In this document: positions 37,701 to 61,800 of the stretch, piece after piece
How the letters are laid out: every line of letters begins with the position of its first letter
Position numbering within the stretch: the first letter of the stretch is position 1
Assembly (NCBI GenBank): GCA_951406725.2
Contig: OX597815.1
Location: 205,592,001-205,656,000, forward strand
DNA from: Octopus vulgaris
Lineage: Eukaryota
Direction: 5' to 3'
DNA: 64,000 nucleotides
Program-made: the position numbers

Positions 37701-40700
37701 ACATTCTGTGCCGTATGACTATGTCCCTCGTTTAAGAAACAGATTGAAATGCAATAGATCGATACTAGGGTCATAATTATGGGTGACAATTTCATATGAC
37801 ACCGTTCAAACCGAAAAGATCCCAAAACATTCTGTATGAATCCATCCACAAGTGGATGAGCTTCTTTGAAAGGCATATGGTTGTATAACAATACTGTACA
37901 ACATGAAACTATGTAATGGTACCGACCAGCATAACATTCAAGAACTCAAAGGTGTATAAAACAACTCCCTGCACACACACACAAAAAACAACTAGATGAT
38001 GTTGACTTCACACCTGCCTTTAGATATTTCGTTAAGGCCCACGGCTTGCATATCTAGAAGTTTCTTGTCACCGAAGATGAGATGAGACAAAGTCTTTTGA
38101 AATCATAACATTTTCTAGATAAACATTATCGATATTGTGACGTCATAATGACACTAGCGAAATTATTGAAGTCTTTCGACGGCACGAATGATACGTAAAT
38201 TCATTTCCCACATACATTCACACATTTATATATGTCCATGCATCTCTCAGTACCCTATCTTTTTCCTTCCATACACACACATAATTCTGTCTTTCACTAT
38301 CTCTTTCTCTCTCCCTCAAATAAATCGGCAAAGCTTATGCATACGCATAAAATGCCTAAGAGCCAACGAGTGAGCATCTATGTGGTTGCTAGGCATGATA
38401 AGCATAGCAAGCAAATCCCACCTCCAATCTCAACATATTCTTTTATAAAAGTACATAGTCGTGAAGCAAGTAAGGAACTACATCCAAACACAAATTCTTT
38501 ACTTTGTAATGTTTCTATGTATGGTTGGAGATCTGTTTTCGGAATATCATCACCAAACCCGACACCAATCCTCCCTAAATTTCTTATCTCTCCCATTCAT
38601 TTGCCCATCCGTAGGTGTTTGCTCAATAAGCCTAGAATGTGTTATGATATTTAGCAGGTACTCCGATAAAACTTAAGGGTTTGTTTGGCAAGTGGTTGTG
38701 GTAGCTAGGTATGTAGAACAGAAGGTTATGTCTAGTTAAGAGTTCTAGTTGTTTTGGAGAGGCAGCTGTGTGTCACTTTAGATGTAAAGGGGATTTAGTT
38801 GTGAGGGTACGTTACTTCTTGTTTGTACTATTTGAAACCCAGGTGTGTTGAGTGCATGGAAATCTCCCTCCAATTATGTTGTTTCTGAGCGTTGTGTATC
38901 GCATTAGTTCTTTTGCAAATATACTTCGTAAACTACACCAGCCAGAAATCGCGAGAGCATCTTTGAAAATTACGCGCAAGTTTGTTTACATTCACTTTCG
39001 CTATTTTGAGTTTCTTCTATTTTTATTTATTTTGCTTACATCGTTTACTGTGAAATTAGTAGCTAATAAAATTATTTATTATAGTGTATCACTGTTTCTT
39101 ATTTACTGTACCCTCAAAGGACATCGTGCCAAAGAAATTAATGAAGAAAAATTCGTCTATCTTAACATTCTGAGTTTAAATTTCGCCGAGGCTGACTTAA
39201 CTTTTCATCCTTTCGGGATCGATAAAATAAGTACCAGTTGACCTCTGGGGTCGATGTTATCGACTTACCCCGTTCCCCAAATTTGCTGGCCTTGTTCCAA
39301 AATTTGAAATCAATATAAACCTGGCTCCACAAAGAGTAGATTGTGAAAGACGCTCAGTTGCGATGATTCGAAACTTATTCTCTGTATATTGCCGAATTCA
39401 TAAATAAACGATTCTGCATTGTACGACACATACACATGAACAGGTGTACACCATTCATTAAAAAAAAAAAAAAATGGGGGAAATTACAGAAAGACGAATT
39501 GCTGGATCTAAAATCTAAACACTTAAGGAATACTGAAAAAAAGGATCTTTTCGGTTTGAACGGCAGTTTTTAAAAATAATTTCTATGTAACTAAAAGATT
39601 TTAAACTTCGTACACTCGTAGAGTGTGTTTATAAAACATCATCTTTTTCTCTTGGCTTTACCGAAAGATCCAAAAAAATTAGTTAGAAACATATCGGTCG
39701 TTTATCATAGCTATTCATGATAAAGATATAAACTTTCATGAAAATATATTTGGCCCTGAAAAGGGCCGATGATTTCAAGAAATACACCAAGTGTTTATTC
39801 ACTGCAAGTGTATCTAGTAACTGCTTTCGTACCCTCAGATATTGAGTGTTTGGCCAATTGACCAGGAATCAAAAGCCGAACGGCAGTTTGAATCTCTCGA
39901 ATACTGATGGTCGAACGTCTGTTGTATTGAGCCAAACGACTGGCTTCGGCGGCGATTCTCTCGAACAAATCGTTAACGAAGCTGTTCATGATGATCATCG
40001 CTTTGTTGGAGATTCCAGTATCAGGATGGACCTGTTTCATAACTTTAAAGATGTAGTTGGAATAGCTTTCTTTCCTCTTTCTCTTTACTTTCTTGCTTTT
40101 CGATCTGGCTAAACTTGGCTTGACGGGTTTCTTGATATCTTCGCTGTCTGACATTATTCACGTTAGCTGCAAACTCTACGAATGCTTTGCCAGTCTCCAA
40201 CAACTGACGCTTTTTATAGTTGTCAGCAGGCTCCAGAAGCAAGTCACTTGTTTGGCGCGCTTGAATTTCATTGGTTGAAATTGTTTCTCACGTGATCAGT
40301 ATACTTGAAGCTACCTGAATTTAGTTTACTTCCACTAAACTATTTCCCACGTGATTCTTAAACGATAGTTTTGTCACGTCTGGTAGCCAAAAAGAAAAAC
40401 TAAATTCGTTCATTTTGCAATGGCCTTTAATTCTCAGTGCACTGTATCAGTTTTGTAAATAATTATAAGTGTTGAATAAATTTGTATATAGAATAGAATA
40501 AGTGCTACAGATTATCACATTTGAAATAAATACATTCATAAATATAAAAATAGAATTTGTATTCTAAAGTTTAATAAAAAAAAATACAGTATTGATTTAG
40601 CCAATTTCAAAATTTGTTTTCAATAATCATTTGGTCTGTTTGTATTCTGTAAAATTTTAGCAAAATGAAAAGTATGATATATTTAAAAATAGGAAATAAA

Positions 40701-58839: not shown

Positions 58840-61800
58840 TTATTTTCCTATTGCCTTATCTTTATTATCTCACATCTTACTAATTATAATTAATTACATG
58901 ACTGATAAAACTATCTACCTGTTTATATAGTCAATACAGCCACTTTGAATATAACAATGTTTATTGGATATTTGTGTTAAATTATTATTTAATACAACAA
59001 TGTTATAATTACACACACATATATATATATATATGCATACATACATACGTACACACACAATATATAGAGTATAATTACTTTCTTTATTAGCCACATAAGG
59101 CTTAACACAGGGGACAGAAAAAAAAAATTGGATTTCAGGTAGGCTCAAGTATGCTGATCACGTGAGAAACTATTTCAACCAATGAAATTCAAGCGCGCCA
59201 AACAGTTACTTTCCGTTTGTGCCTACGCTCTAGATATAAAGTCAGTTGCCAGAGATCAGCTAATCATTCGTAGAGCTTGCAGTGATCGTTGAAGATGTCA
59301 GACAGCGAAGATATCAAGAAACCCGTCAAGCCAAATTTAGCCAGATCGAAAAGCAAGAAAGTAAAGAGAAAGAGGAAAGAAAGCTATTCCAACTATATCT
59401 ATAAAGTTATGAAACAGGTCCATCCTCATACTGGAATCTCCAGCAAAGCGATGATCATCATGAACAGCTTCGTTAACGATTTGTTCGAGAGAATCGCTGC
59501 CGAAGCCAGTCGTTTGGCTCAGTACAACAGACGTTCGACCATCAGTAGTCGAGAGATTCAAACTGCCGTTCGGCTTTTGATTCCTGGCCAATTGGCCAAA
59601 CACGCAATGTCAGAGGGTACGAAGGCAATCACTAAATACACTAGCAGCGAATAAACACTTGCTGTAGTAATTTCTCTATCAACGGCCCTTTTCAGGGCCA
59701 AATATATTTTCATGAAAGTTTATCTTTATCATGAATAGCAATGATATGCAACAGTTACGCTTTTATCTGTAATTCTTTCAGTATTTTAAAAGTGTTTACA
59801 TTTTAGGCTGAGCAATTCATCTTTCCACGATATTTCCTTTCTTGGTTTAATGTATATTTGTCTTAAGATGGAGAATCATTTCTTTATGACTTCGGCAATA
59901 TTAAGAGACTCTGTTTCAAAGTGTCACGTCTGAACGTCTTTCCAGCCGCAGAATGAAGTAGTCGATATCAATCGCTTTACAACCAATTCTCTTTTTTATT
60001 TTCCCAGTGTAGAATACTGCTTGGCAATCTTTAGTTAGATCAGCTTTAAGCTACTCTTACGTGAGAATTTGCTAATTTATATGTATGTAAACACGGAGCT
60101 TTGACTCAGTAATCTTTTGCAATTAGTAACTCAAATTTCTTCAGTGGCTTAGGGTGGTTTCCTTCTTTTGCAGAGCTTCTTCCTCATTTTGTATACATTT
60201 ACATCTTCAAACCAGAATGGCGTCGTAATTGTGTAATTATTTGTAATAGCTAAACTTGTTTGCAATAAATATCTTAGTCGTGAGTGATAGTTTTCCTCTA
60301 CGTTAATATTTTGCCAAGTTTCAAAAGTCAGCGACTTCGTTTTGAATGTGAACACGTGACAACATCATTTTGTAAGTACGATGTCTGTTGGGTTTTTTTC
60401 TAATGAGTTGTAATTAGCAGCAAAATTTTATTTTCATTCTTCGTCACGAAGTTCGTTGAGGGTACACTAAATAAGAAATAGTGGCACATTGTCATGAATA
60501 GTTTCATTAGCTGCAACAATAGCATCTAAAATGTCGCGTGTAAATATCAACAAACATGGGCTCTTGACTTAGAATTTTTGGGTACTACTTGACAACAGTG
60601 GTCCCGGTGCGCGCATCCGCGCTAGCTAGTCGTGACTATTCGATCCTACAACGACTACCTAGCAAAGTAAATAAAACAAAGTAAATAACACAAAGTAAGG
60701 ATCGATTAGTCATGACTAGCTGGCGCGAGTGCGCGCAACGGGACCACTGTTCTCAAGTAGAACCCAATTTTTGTTTAAGTAAAATTCAGACGAAGATAGA
60801 AATTTAATTACAAACCATTTGTTATAATAGAATCTAATTGGCGCTAATCGTCATGTAAAGAAAACAACAATAGTAATATAGTGTTGATGGTGGTAAAAGT
60901 GGCAATGTGTTTTTGCAAGACGGCCAAAACTTCTTTAACCACAATTAATGGGACCCGAAGGATGAGAAGGGTGGTTATGAGATCTGGCGGACTGATAGGA
61001 AAAATACATAAGAGTAAGGTAAATGGAGCCCTAGAAACGAAAAGTGTGTCAGGTTTGGTGATCCTTGATCAGAAGTACTTTATTTTATATTTTTTTTAAC
61101 GAATGAAACCAAATTTACCTACATATGGAATGCTTTAATTCTTTTATAAATATTAATTCCAAATTTTGGCAGAAGGCCAAAAAATACTCAACTGATACTT
61201 TATTGATTTGAAAGGTTGAAAGGCAAAGTCGATCTGGACGGAATAATTCTTTTATAGATATTAAAATTATTTTGCATTATTAAACTTATATGCACAGTCT
61301 TCTGTCTTACACCAAATTTTAAAAACATTTTCAGGTTTCAAATTTCCTATCCAGCTAAAAACGGATTTTCTTCTTAGAAACAATGGTGCTTCTTGTCTCA
61401 TAGTATGCTTTGTGACCCCTTTTCAAGGAGTAGTTATTTCAAATAACCAAATGCACCCATTGATGTGTGTCACAGAAGATTTGGTAAGTTTCTCTAGCTT
61501 ATCAAATGACAAAGACCTTCTTGTAGGCCTGTACCAAATACGTTTAAAAAAAAATAATAAACACCACCAGAAATTCGATGTCCAAAAAATTTGAATACTA
61601 CTCACAATACAAGGTTAAAATCATACACCAGCCTTTTGAAAGTCAAAAGATTTCATGAAACACAGCATCTACATAGGTGTAATTTAGGAAACATTCCTAT
61701 AACCTTAACATATCACTACTAGGTATCATCTGCTCTCAGCAACTTAAAAATCATGGACTATTGTCTCAGGCTTTCTTGTGCTTTTCTTATAAACTCACTG

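What the first reader, a model, noticed from the sequence alone, without database searches (positions are those of the whole stretch)
39752..59721. H2B-only cluster encoding a divergent H2B variant family with replication-dependent-type 3' ends
Seen: five H2B-derived loci in 20 kb in mixed orientation (three intact, one deleted, one remnant) and no H2A, H3, H4 or H1 ORF in 64 kb. The intact copies share a short tail starting MSDSED, PGQLAKH instead of PGELAKH, and a terminal Glu instead of Lys, yet keep the canonical stem-loop. Established: replication-dependent histone genes normally cluster with the other core histones, and E105 is part of the nucleosome acidic patch. Inference: a lineage-specific, birth-and-death evolving H2B variant that weakens the acidic patch, possibly germline or early-embryo specific. 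This is the best candidate for an undescribed system here; novelty was not checked against databases.
Basis: partly seen in the sequence, partly recalled or inferred. Interest (0 to 1): 0.8.

Follow-up and report, generated by a model that had tools for sequence, protein, structure and literature searches.

The report
Octopus-specific histone H2B variant cluster
This stretch of an octopus genome holds a small, partly decayed cluster of genes for a histone H2B variant found so far only in the genus Octopus; the variant carries a charge-removing change on the nucleosome surface, but lineage-specific H2B variants of this kind are already known from other animals.

Summary
There are five H2B-derived loci in 20 kb: three intact single-exon genes (A 39795-40154 minus, C 50894-51247 minus, E 59295-59654 plus), one 5'-truncated and internally deleted pseudogene (B), and one 13-codon remnant with a stem-loop (D). 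No other histone gene was detected in the window.

The window is from an Octopus. The closest proteins are O. sinensis 'late histone H2B.L4-like' (98% identity) and an unnamed O. bimaculoides protein (92-94%).

The variant is not the bulk H2B. Canonical octopod H2B has PGELAKH, a terminal Lys and a different tail, and is 76-78% identical. The signature changes E105Q and K125E are present in 5 of 5 variant sequences. dN/dS among the intact copies is 0.15-0.32 (p 0.01-0.03).

Copies A and E keep a shared promoter, the histone stem-loop and a conserved downstream block. Copy C has lost the native promoter.

The kind is known. Hydractinia has intronless, stem-loop-bearing H2B variants in an H2B-only cluster, and primate testis H2B.W1 has the same E105Q change.

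Tissue of expression, incorporation into chromatin and effect on the nucleosome are untested. My verdict is a real, lineage-restricted H2B variant family: a new member of a known kind, of moderate interest.

The parts
39673..40319 (-). Copy A, the whole duplicated unit: promoter block, 5'UTR, CDS, 3'UTR with stem-loop, and downstream block
   Evidence: Self-BLAST: 39673-40319 matches 59134-59778 at 87.6% over 653 bp.
39795..40154 (-). Copy A coding sequence, 119 aa. It carries E105Q and K125E like the others, plus K120R (VTRYTCSE) and other changes of its own.
   Evidence: The C-terminal 70 residues are identical to the second half of O. sinensis model P0006.
39728..39772 (-). Histone 3' stem-loop of copy A
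   Evidence: RF00032, 34.9 bits (gathering score 34), E 2.3e-06. Exact 16-mer at 39752-39767.
40179..40319 (-). Promoter of copy A: CACGTG (40294-40289), CCAAT (40274-40270), GCGCGCCAAA (40260-40251), TATAAA (40218-40213), CATTCG cap-site motif (40184-40179)
   Evidence: Motif positions -140, -120, -106, -64 and -30 relative to the ATG. The block 40249-40319 is 94.4% identical over 71 bp to copy E. The roles assigned to the motifs are recalled consensus knowledge, not tested here.
45372..45721 (+). Copy B, a pseudogene. The 5' end is replaced by a repeat element at 45372, about 32 codons are deleted in frame (end of the N-tail and helix alpha1), and the stem-loop is degraded. An ORF at 45275-45625 stays open through a chance upstream ATG.
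   Evidence: Stem 13 of 16 bases. No RF00032 hit at E<=10. Repeat element at 45246-45372.
48502..48675 (+). Remnant D: the last 13 codons, 3'UTR, an intact stem-loop (48575-48590) and the downstream block
   Evidence: tblastn 48503-48541. RF00032 27.7 bits at 48570-48614. DNA homology to C and E at 72-73%.
50799..51278 (-). Copy C unit. Homology to E starts at the CATTCG cap motif (51277-51272), so the native promoter is missing. The CDS 50894-51247 encodes 117 aa (two residues shorter in the KRKRK run). The stem-loop is at 50825-50869.
   Evidence: Self-BLAST: 94.5% over 488 bp to E. Promoter segment only 48% identical to E. No copy of the promoter block elsewhere. RF00032 28.2 bits, below the gathering score. 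Exact 16-mer at 50849-50864. AATAAA at +117 after the stop.
59134..59778 (+). Copy E, the whole unit. Promoter: CACGTG 59159-59164, CCAAT 59179-59183, GCGCGCCAAA 59193-59202, TATAAA 59235-59240, CATTCG 59265-59270. CDS 59295-59654 (119 aa). Stem-loop 59679-59723.
   Evidence: RF00032 36.5 bits.

Best explanation
This is a small, locally duplicating and decaying cluster of single-exon genes for a histone H2B paralogue that has so far been seen only in the genus Octopus. The paralogue derives from the cephalopod canonical H2B gene. It keeps the full histone fold and the machinery of a replication-dependent histone gene: a short 5'UTR behind a TATA/CCAAT promoter, a roughly 27-nt 3'UTR, the SLBP-type stem-loop and a conserved downstream block, and no poly(A) signal in copies A and E. 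I infer that its mRNA is made and processed like bulk histone mRNA, that the protein pairs with H2A, and that it enters nucleosomes. The protein differs from bulk H2B in three ways. Its N-terminal tail is replaced: it is shorter, starts with the acidic run SDSED, and lacks the usual lysine-rich start. E105 at the edge of the acidic patch is Gln. The C-terminal Lys (K125) is Glu. Copy A also has Arg at K120, the ubiquitylation site. I infer that nucleosomes carrying the variant keep general arginine-anchor binding but change their interactions with factors that contact E105 and the H2B alphaC helix, for example PRC1-type H2A ubiquitin ligases. At least copies A and E are probably functional. 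C is doubtful because it has lost the native promoter. B and D are dead. Shown here: the gene anatomy, the distinctness from canonical H2B, the conservation of the signature residues across three Octopus data sets, and dN/dS below 1. Inferred: expression, S-phase coupling, incorporation into nucleosomes and the effect on chromatin.
For: Anatomy and stem-loops. The organism is Octopus, and relatives exist in two named species: P0014 (O. sinensis, 98%), P0021 (O. bimaculoides, 92-94%) and P0006 (a chimeric O. sinensis model containing both the C type and the A type). The variant is distinct from canonical H2B: 76-78% identity to P0050 and P0032. Variant-specific residues: N33, I54, R79, I96, Q99 and E119 in 5 of 5 variant sequences against I, S, K, L, E and K in 4 of 4 canonical mollusc sequences; Q76 in 4 of 5. 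Cephalopod origin is suggested by VNDLFERIA and STISSRE, which are shared with the octopod canonical H2Bs but not with the gastropod or chiton ones. A search scored on the tail alone (residues 1-40) returned 2 of 2 candidates, both Octopus. The variant aligns colinearly with solved nucleosomal H2B (query 13-118, E about 1e-51), which gives the numbering q+6 = human residue. Constraint: dN/dS is 0.32 (A-C), 0.30 (A-E) and 0.15 (C-E), with Fisher p 0.027, 0.016 and 0.010. Between A and E the CDS is 95% identical, the stem-loop 16 of 16, the 60 nt after the stem 88% and the promoter core 94% (71 bp), whereas the 5'UTR is 73% and the 3'UTR spacer 70%. Promoter motifs sit at matching positions in A and E. 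Literature, passages read: E105 and E113 are the H2B residues of the acidic patch; E105A does not correlate with arginine-anchor mutants but abolishes RING1B-BMI1 activity in vitro (PMC12448860). H2B.W1 has Q at the E105 position and lacks K120 (PMC11514470). H2B.1 and H2B.W genes carry stem-loops (PMC8857922). Hydractinia H2B variants are intronless with a stem-loop and three of them sit in an H2B-only cluster (PMC5011920).
Against: There are no expression or protein data of any kind. Two of the five loci are dead, and one intact copy has lost its promoter, so the cluster is decaying in a repeat-rich region. The dN/dS estimates rest on few changes (8 to 18 per pair). The three pairs are not independent, and part of the signal may date from before any loss of function. 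Synonymous divergence between A and E (0.12) is well below UTR divergence (27-30%). This points to gene conversion or codon selection in the CDS, and conversion can keep ORFs similar without selection on each copy. Only 2 of 3 intact copies reach the Rfam gathering score. All stem-loops are followed by AAATA, where the Rfam consensus has ACcaA. Copy A has changes at otherwise conserved positions (K120R, S to C), which could be early decay. The restriction to Octopus rests on a protein database that may not hold other octopod proteomes. No eukaryote genome collection was available.
Confidence: 0.62

Rival explanations
1. The cluster is a family of decaying duplicates with no present function. 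A canonical H2B gene was copied out of the main histone cluster, drifted, and was multiplied by repeat-mediated rearrangement. The intact ORFs persist by chance and by gene conversion.
For: 2 of 5 loci are dead (B, D) and 1 of 3 intact copies lacks the native promoter. The region is full of MITE-like and LINE fragments, which abut 4 of 5 loci. Synonymous sites are less diverged than the UTRs, as expected under gene conversion. Copy A has lost K120.
Against: dN/dS is 0.15-0.32 with p 0.01-0.03 in all three pairs. The signature residues and intact ORFs are shared with O. bimaculoides and O. sinensis, so the form has persisted across species. The promoter core, the stem-loop and the downstream block are better conserved between A and E than the UTR spacers are.
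Confidence: 0.22
2. These are ordinary canonical (bulk) H2B isoforms of this species. The differences are just isoform noise of the kind seen among human H2B genes.
For: Replication-dependent gene anatomy. Octopods have greatly expanded canonical histone families in dispersed clusters (PMC12210499, sections 11-12 read).
Against: Identity to canonical octopod H2B is only 76-78%. The whole N-tail is replaced and two charge changes lie in the highly conserved alphaC helix. Canonical units in octopus are described as H3-H4-H2A-H2B groups, and no partner histone gene is present here.
Confidence: 0.05
3. It is a functional H2B-derived protein with a role outside the nucleosome, as proposed for mammalian H2B.L and H2B.N, or as a source of antimicrobial histone peptides.
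For: The acidic, atypical N-terminus and the altered alphaC end. Non-nucleosomal roles are discussed for H2B.L and H2B.N (PMC8857922 passages). Histones are listed among antimicrobial-peptide homologues in an octopus gland transcriptome (PMC12607849 passages).
Against: The histone fold, the basic KRKRKESYS segment, E113 and the alphaC helix are all kept, and the alignment to nucleosomal H2B is gap-free over residues 13-118. Nothing in the sequence suggests secretion or another fold.
Confidence: 0.05

Closest known systems
Hydractinia echinata replication-dependent H2B variants H2B.2-H2B.6 (PMC5011920; abstract and passages read)
   Same: They are lineage-specific and intronless, with a typical histone 3' stem-loop and no poly(A) signal. 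Three of them form an H2B-only cluster of 5.8 kb away from the canonical cluster. H2B.2 has an unusually short N-terminus that lacks the usual basic residues.
   Different: Four of the Hydractinia variants carry SPKK/SPKR repeats for sperm DNA packing, and the octopus tail has none. The Hydractinia genes have shown male-germ-cell, S-phase-linked expression, whereas nothing is known for the octopus genes. The origins are independent (cnidarian versus cephalopod).
Primate testis-specific H2B.W1 / H2BFWT (PMC11514470, passages read; PMC8857922, passages read)
   Same: It has the same replacement of acidic-patch residue E105 by Gln (Q126 in H2B.W1). It has lost the K120 equivalent, as in octopus copy A and pseudogene B only. 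The genes carry a histone stem-loop.
   Different: H2B.W1 is a mammalian lineage and its Gln sits at residue 126, so its N-terminal part is about 21 residues longer. It also has poly(A) signals and many further changes that destabilise the nucleosome. The octopus variant is otherwise close to canonical H2B (76-78%). The resemblance at E105 is convergent, not orthology. No H2B.W sequence was aligned here.
Canonical replication-dependent H2B of octopods (O. bimaculoides P0050, Argonauta hians P0032)
   Same: Single exon. The histone fold, the KRKRKESYS segment, E113 and cephalopod-type residues ([16 protein letters not shown]) are shared.
   Different: The tail is different, with E105Q, K125E and I39N, S60I, K85R and L102I in human numbering. 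The variant is not grouped with H2A, H3 and H4 genes (organisation of canonical units from PMC12210499).
Sea urchin late H2B genes (the source of the automatic RefSeq name 'late histone H2B.L4-like')
   Same: From my own recall, not from a call: the late genes are dispersed, irregularly arranged histone genes with stem-loops that are used at particular developmental stages.
   Different: The name is an automatic best-hit label. No sea urchin sequence was compared here. None of the 11 papers containing 'H2B.L4' concerns an octopus (search listing only).

Membership tests
Histone H2B (core histone fold, PF00125) | Histone-fold domain above the Pfam gathering score | tested here: met
   PF00125 at 73.2, 75.0 and 79.7 bits for A, C and E (cut-off 26.4). 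B scores 44.6 bits.
Histone H2B (core histone fold, PF00125) | Colinear, H2B-specific alignment including the alphaC helix to solved nucleosomal H2B | tested here: met
   178 distinct PDB H2B sequences at E<=1e-20. The best full-length matches cover query 13-118 at E about 7e-51.
Canonical replication-dependent histone gene | Intronless gene with the 3' stem-loop (RF00032) shortly after the stop codon | tested here: met
   Single ORFs. RF00032 above the gathering score for E and A and below it (28.2 bits) for C. The 16-nt stem-loop is identical in A, C and E and lies 27-29 nt after the stop.
Canonical replication-dependent histone gene | No poly(A) signal downstream | tested here: inconclusive
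   No AATAAA or ATTAAA within 600 nt after the stop in A and E. C has AATAAA at +117 and +499. Absence of the motif does not prove absence of polyadenylation.
Canonical replication-dependent histone gene | Grouped with H2A, H3 and H4 (and H1) genes | tested here: not met
   No other stem-loop. 0 hits for six H3/H4/H2A motifs in six frames. 0 of 10 K/R-rich ORFs matched a histone in Pfam.
Canonical replication-dependent histone gene | Encodes the bulk protein sequence of the species | tested here: not met
   76-78% identity to canonical octopod H2B. Tail replaced, E105Q, K125E. The canonical H2B of the window's own species was not seen.
Canonical replication-dependent histone gene | S-phase-coupled expression and U7/SLBP-dependent processing | not testable with these tools
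   This needs RNA data. Only the cis elements could be seen.
H2B.W (mammalian testis variant) | Gln at the E105 position of the acidic patch | tested here: met
   Q99 = human position 105 in 5 of 5 variant sequences. The H2B.W1 Q126 equivalence comes from PMC11514470.
H2B.W (mammalian testis variant) | Orthology with the mammalian H2B.W clade | not tested
   No H2B.W sequence was aligned. The variant shares cephalopod-specific residues with octopod canonical H2B, which argues for an independent origin.
Sperm-type SPKK H2B variants (sea urchin, Hydractinia) | SPKK/SPKR repeats in the N-terminal tail | tested here: not met
   The tail reads [32 protein letters not shown], with no SPKK or SPKR.
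Lineage-specific replication-dependent H2B variant clusters (as in Hydractinia) | Divergent H2B paralogues, intronless, with a stem-loop, in an H2B-only cluster apart from the canonical units | tested here: met
   The description of the kind is from PMC5011920.
Lineage-specific replication-dependent H2B variant clusters (as in Hydractinia) | Germ-cell-specific expression | not testable with these tools
   No expression data are reachable.

The most novel reading that the evidence does not exclude
Octopuses have independently evolved a replication-coupled H2B variant that converges on primate testis H2B.W1 at the acidic-patch residue E105Q. It additionally reverses the charge at both ends of the protein: an acidic, probably phosphorylatable N-terminus, and K125E. 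Deposited in S phase in a particular cell lineage (germline, early embryo or the expanding nervous system), it would mark chromatin as refractory to E105-dependent enzymes such as PRC1-type H2A ubiquitin ligases. The K120R subtype (copy A) would in addition be blind to H2B ubiquitylation.
Probability: 0.15. Interest if true: 0.6.

Novelty: new member of a known kind. Interest (0 to 1): 0.36.

Why it matters
H2B is the core histone with the fewest well-understood variants, and almost all functional work is on mammals. This is a compact variant in which only a few positions differ from bulk H2B: the tail, E105Q, K125E and, in one subtype, K120R. It is a natural experiment on the H2B alphaC helix and the rim of the acidic patch, which is the surface most chromatin enzymes dock on. 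The same E105Q change in primate H2B.W1 suggests a recurrent solution. If the variant is expressed in a defined octopus tissue, it would give cephalopod chromatin biology a tractable, lineage-specific marker. If it is not expressed, the locus is just an example of histone gene birth and death in a repeat-rich genome.

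Tried and rejected

2. Searching for the variant tail in other taxa gave only the two Octopus clusters. This shows restriction within that database only.

3. The bacterial and archaeal genome collection and the phage, plasmid and E. coli collections are irrelevant to a cephalopod gene and were not used. No eukaryote genome collection was on hand. Orthologous loci and DNA from other cephalopods, and the canonical H2B genes of this species, therefore stayed unchecked.

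4. Literature searches:
- 'octopus' + 'histone H2B' + 'variant': 17 papers.
- 'H2B.L4': 11 papers, none on octopus by title.
- 'cephalopod' + 'histone variant' + 'H2B' + 'testis': 4 papers.
- 'octopus' + 'spermiogenesis' + 'histone' + 'protamine': 5 papers.
None of these describes this variant. The mollusc inventory (PMC12210499) only counts one O. vulgaris H2B variant. Its tables and datasets are supplements, which are closed, so I could not see whether that one variant is this family.

5. The Paroctopus gland transcriptome paper mentions H2B only as an antimicrobial-peptide homologue and gives no link to this variant.

6. Copy C as a retrocopy: its homology starts exactly at the cap motif, which fits a retrocopy. 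I rejected the idea because homology continues about 50 nt past the stem-loop cleavage region. A rearrangement or insertion upstream of the cap site is more likely.

7. The weak Rfam hits at 46324-46464 (mir-297, mir-1277 and others) lie on a (TA)n run and are artefacts.

8. I did not run structure prediction, complex prediction or the ESM Atlas. The fold is settled by sequence, and an H2A-H2B pair would pass by likeness to solved nucleosomes.

9. No spliced gene model was involved, because all copies are single-exon.

Full report
**1. What is in the sequence**

The region 39.7-59.8 kb holds five loci derived from histone H2B.

Three are intact single-exon ORFs:
- A, 39795-40154 on the minus strand, 119 aa.
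- C, 50894-51247 on the minus strand, 117 aa.
- E, 59295-59654 on the plus strand, 119 aa.

All three begin [13 protein letters not shown], contain [10 protein letters not shown] and end in Glu.

A fourth locus, B, has H2B homology at 45374-45622 on the plus strand (tblastn E about 1e-39). It has lost its start and about 32 internal codons, covering the end of the tail and helix alpha1. A 116-aa ORF (45275-45625) stays open only through a chance upstream ATG.

A fifth locus, D, keeps only the last 13 codons (48503-48541) followed by the 3'UTR.

Pfam PF00125 matches 4 of 4 ORFs.

The histone 3' stem-loop model RF00032 gives the only two gathering-level Rfam hits of the whole window. They lie behind E (36.5 bits) and A (34.9 bits; the cut-off is 34). 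Behind C and D it scores 28.2 and 27.7 bits, below the cut-off, and behind B it gives nothing at E<=10.

The exact 16-mer GGCCCTTTTCAGGGCC occurs four times (A, D, C, E). The expected number is 0.10, and 0 of 100 shuffles reach four.

**2. No other histone gene was detected in the window**

- There is no further stem-loop.
The H2B control motif recovers all four copies, plus two chance near-matches.
- Of 269 stop-to-stop ORFs of at least 60 aa, 31 have at least 17% Lys+Arg, and four of those are the H2B copies. I scanned 10 of the other 27 with Pfam, and 0 of 10 matched a histone.
- H1 is covered only by the last screen and by the stem-loop search.

The rest of the window holds a lysine-methyltransferase-like exon, a 783-aa C2H2 zinc-finger ORF, reverse-transcriptase fragments and many repeats.

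**3. Organism, and relation to the bulk H2B**

The best full-length relatives are:
- 'late histone H2B.L4-like' of Octopus sinensis (P0014, 119 aa, 98% identity to E).
- An unnamed 'core histone domain-containing protein' of O. bimaculoides (P0021, 117 aa, 92-94%).
- A 150-aa O. sinensis model (P0006). It is a chimera of a C-type half and an A-type half, in the same order and on the same strand as C and A here.

So the window is from an Octopus of the vulgaris/sinensis group. The window is not human. No spliced model was involved.

Canonical octopod H2B is different. The sequences seen are O. bimaculoides P0050 and Argonauta hians P0032, both labelled 'histone H2B, gonadal'. They have a different N-tail (longer by 3-4 residues), PGELAKH and a terminal Lys, and they are 76-78% identical to E.

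In the alignment of five variant and four canonical mollusc sequences:
- The variant has N33, I54, R79, I96, Q99 and E119 in 5 of 5 sequences, where the canonical ones have I, S, K, L, E and K in 4 of 4.
- Q76 (canonical H) is present in 4 of 5; P0021 keeps H.
- Position 105 is M or I in place of V.
- Position 112 is I in 4 of 5.

The variant shares VNDLFERIA and STISSRE with the octopod canonical proteins but not with the gastropod or chiton ones. It therefore most likely arose from a cephalopod canonical H2B gene.

A search scored on residues 1-40 alone returned two candidates, both Octopus. In the full-length search no protein of another genus scored between the Octopus variants (220-236 bits) and canonical H2Bs (about 185 bits or less), apart from tandem-fused gene models.

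Within that database the family is therefore confined to Octopus. Other octopod genomes could not be searched.

**4. Residue mapping**

The alignment to solved nucleosomal H2B is gap-free over residues 13-118 (E about 7e-51). For human chains that include the initiator Met the offset is +7, so conventional human numbering is variant residue +6. This gives:

| Variant residue | Human position | State in the variant |
|---|---|---|
| Q99 | E105 | replaced by Gln |
| E107 | E113 | kept |
| K114 | K120 | kept in C and E; Arg in A and in pseudogene B |
| E119 | K125 | replaced by Glu |

The acidic patch is defined in the literature as H2A E56, E61, E64, D90, E91 and E92 plus H2B E105 and E113 (PMC12448860, passages read).

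**5. Gene anatomy and regulation**

Copies A and E share a promoter with the same elements at matching distances from the ATG:

| Element | Position in A | Position in E |
|---|---|---|
| CACGTG | -140 | -136 |
| CCAAT | -120 | -116 |
| GCGCGCCAAA | -106 | -102 |
| TATAAA | -64 | -60 |
| CATTCG | -30 | -30 |

I recall GCGCGCCAAA as the reverse of an E2F-type site and CATTCG as the classical histone cap-site motif. Both readings are recalled, not tested here.

The 71-bp core of this promoter is 94.4% identical between A and E and occurs nowhere else in the window.

Copy C is homologous to E only from the CATTCG motif onward. Upstream of it lies unrelated sequence (48% identity), so C has lost the native promoter.

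I considered a retrocopy origin for C. I rejected it because homology runs about 50 nt beyond the stem-loop.

The 3'UTR is 27-29 nt to the stem. The 60 nt after the stem are 88% (A) and 81% (C) identical to E. They include a purine run (CATGAAAGT) at the place where a histone downstream element is expected; that expectation is recalled.

No AATAAA or ATTAAA lies within 600 nt of the stop in A and E. C has AATAAA at +117.

**6. Selection**

Nei-Gojobori estimates among the intact copies:

| Pair | Synonymous changes | Non-synonymous changes | dN/dS |
|---|---|---|---|
| A-C | 7 | 9 | 0.32 |
| A-E | 8 | 10 | 0.30 |
| C-E | 5 | 3 | 0.15 |

Fisher tests against equal rates per site give p = 0.027, 0.016 and 0.010. 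The counts are small and the pairs are not independent.

Between A and E:

| Segment | Identity |
|---|---|
| CDS | 95% |
| Stem-loop | 16 of 16 |
| 5'UTR | 73% (22 of 30) |
| 3'UTR spacer | 70% (19 of 27) |

Synonymous divergence (0.12) is thus lower than UTR divergence. This suggests gene conversion or codon selection inside the CDS, and it weakens the dN/dS argument somewhat.

Taken together, three lines of evidence make at least A and E likely functional genes: dN/dS below 1, persistence of the signature residues in O. bimaculoides, and better conservation of regulatory blocks than of spacers.

**7. Birth and death**

The duplicated units are short, 0.48-0.65 kb. They are embedded in repeats.

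A roughly 407-bp element with 26-bp terminal inverted repeats lies next to four of the five loci. Full copies are at 43489-43895 and 47937-48347. The element forms the 5' break of B at 45372.

Reverse-transcriptase fragments lie between the copies.

The picture is local duplication followed by decay of individual copies. That model has been put forward for H2B variants before: I saw the title of Gonzalez-Romero et al. 2010 only in a reference list.

**8. How it probably works (inferred)**

The cis elements are those of a replication-dependent histone gene. The mRNA should therefore be unspliced, about 0.45 kb long, bound by SLBP and cleaved after the stem-loop. The protein should dimerise with H2A and enter nucleosomes.

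What changes is the surface:
- The acetylatable, lysine-rich start of the tail is replaced by an acidic Ser-rich start. SDSED fits the CK2 S-x-x-E/D pattern, which I recall rather than tested.
- E105 is neutralised.
- K125 becomes acidic.

The published mutant data matter for the second change. E105A nucleosomes do not behave like arginine-anchor mutants. They do lose all measurable RING1B-BMI1 H2A ubiquitylation, and BRCA1-BARD1 activity is reduced, though below the significance threshold (PMC12448860, passages).

The most specific prediction is therefore altered susceptibility to E105-contacting enzymes, not a general loss of acidic-patch binding.

The A subtype, with Arg at K120, could not be ubiquitylated at that residue.

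**9. Comparison with what is known**

Variants with replication-dependent 3' ends are not new:
- Mammalian H2B.1 and H2B.W genes carry stem-loops (PMC8857922, passages).
- Hydractinia echinata has five intronless, stem-loop-bearing H2B variants without poly(A) signals. Three of them lie in an H2B-only 5.8-kb cluster, one has a short non-basic N-terminus, and most are male-germ-cell specific (PMC5011920, abstract and passages).
- Oikopleura has many male-specific H2B variants (PMC3156773, abstract and passages).
- Primate testis H2B.W1 has exactly the E105-to-Gln change and lacks K120 (PMC11514470, passages).

The octopus family is thus a new, apparently genus-restricted member of a known kind. 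It shows a convergent E105Q change.

It is already present in RefSeq and UniProt under automatic names.

A 2025 inventory of mollusc core histones reports that H2B variants were seen only in M. gigas (two) and O. vulgaris (one), without describing them (PMC12210499; abstract, sections 5, 12, 14 and 18 and passages read).

My searches found no paper that describes it.

**10. Verdict**

- The variant is real and distinct from bulk H2B.
- Birth-and-death evolution is visible in the locus.
- The acidic-patch residue is correctly identified.

Interest is moderate. The variant would be a good candidate for a short experimental study of H2B alphaC function and cephalopod chromatin. It is not a surprise to a specialist in histone variants.

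Noticed in passing
43489-43895 and 47937-48347 (full copies); 37506-37746, 51665-51878, 39543-39660, 45246-45372 (partial copies): A roughly 407-bp repeat with 26-bp terminal inverted repeats (MITE-like). The two full copies are 92.5% identical. Copies lie beside four of the five H2B loci, and one forms the 5' break of pseudogene B. The element may have mediated the rearrangements.
   Followed up: partly
O. sinensis protein P0006, relating to window copies C (50894-51247) and A (39795-40154): The 150-aa RefSeq model 'late histone H2B.L4-like' joins a C-type fragment to an A-type fragment. It looks like a chimeric gene prediction across two separate single-exon genes on the same strand.
   Followed up: partly
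22947-25298 (+): An uninterrupted 783-aa ORF with 21-22 C2H2 zinc fingers (Pfam zf-C2H2, E 2.8e-123). It is the kind of gene that I recall as massively expanded in octopus genomes.
   Followed up: no
1412-2143 (+): An open frame with a Methyltransf_16 (lysine methyltransferase) match, E 8.6e-09. It is probably an exon of a METTL-type gene.
   Followed up: no
47233-47806 (-), 57100-57414 (-), 54295-54657 (-), 56487-56921 (-): Fragments of reverse transcriptase (RVT_1) and of PHD/C1-like zinc-finger ORFs. The stretches 53793-54642 and 56073-56938 are 68% alike, which suggests two decayed copies of one retroelement between copies C and E.
   Followed up: no
52813-53314, with related copies at 18092-19158, 20976-21354, 28280-28517 and 55594-55900: A repeat family with internal tandem units offset by about 66 bp (self-BLAST). 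It gives long spurious ORFs in several frames.
   Followed up: no
46324-46464: A (TA)n microsatellite that produces sub-threshold Rfam hits to mir-297, mir-1277 and others. These are artefacts of low complexity.
   Followed up: yes
Copies A and E: 5'UTR, CDS and 3'UTR: Synonymous divergence in the CDS (dS 0.12) is much lower than divergence of the adjacent UTR spacers (27-30% over 57 nt). This suggests gene conversion confined to the CDS or selection on codons.
   Followed up: partly
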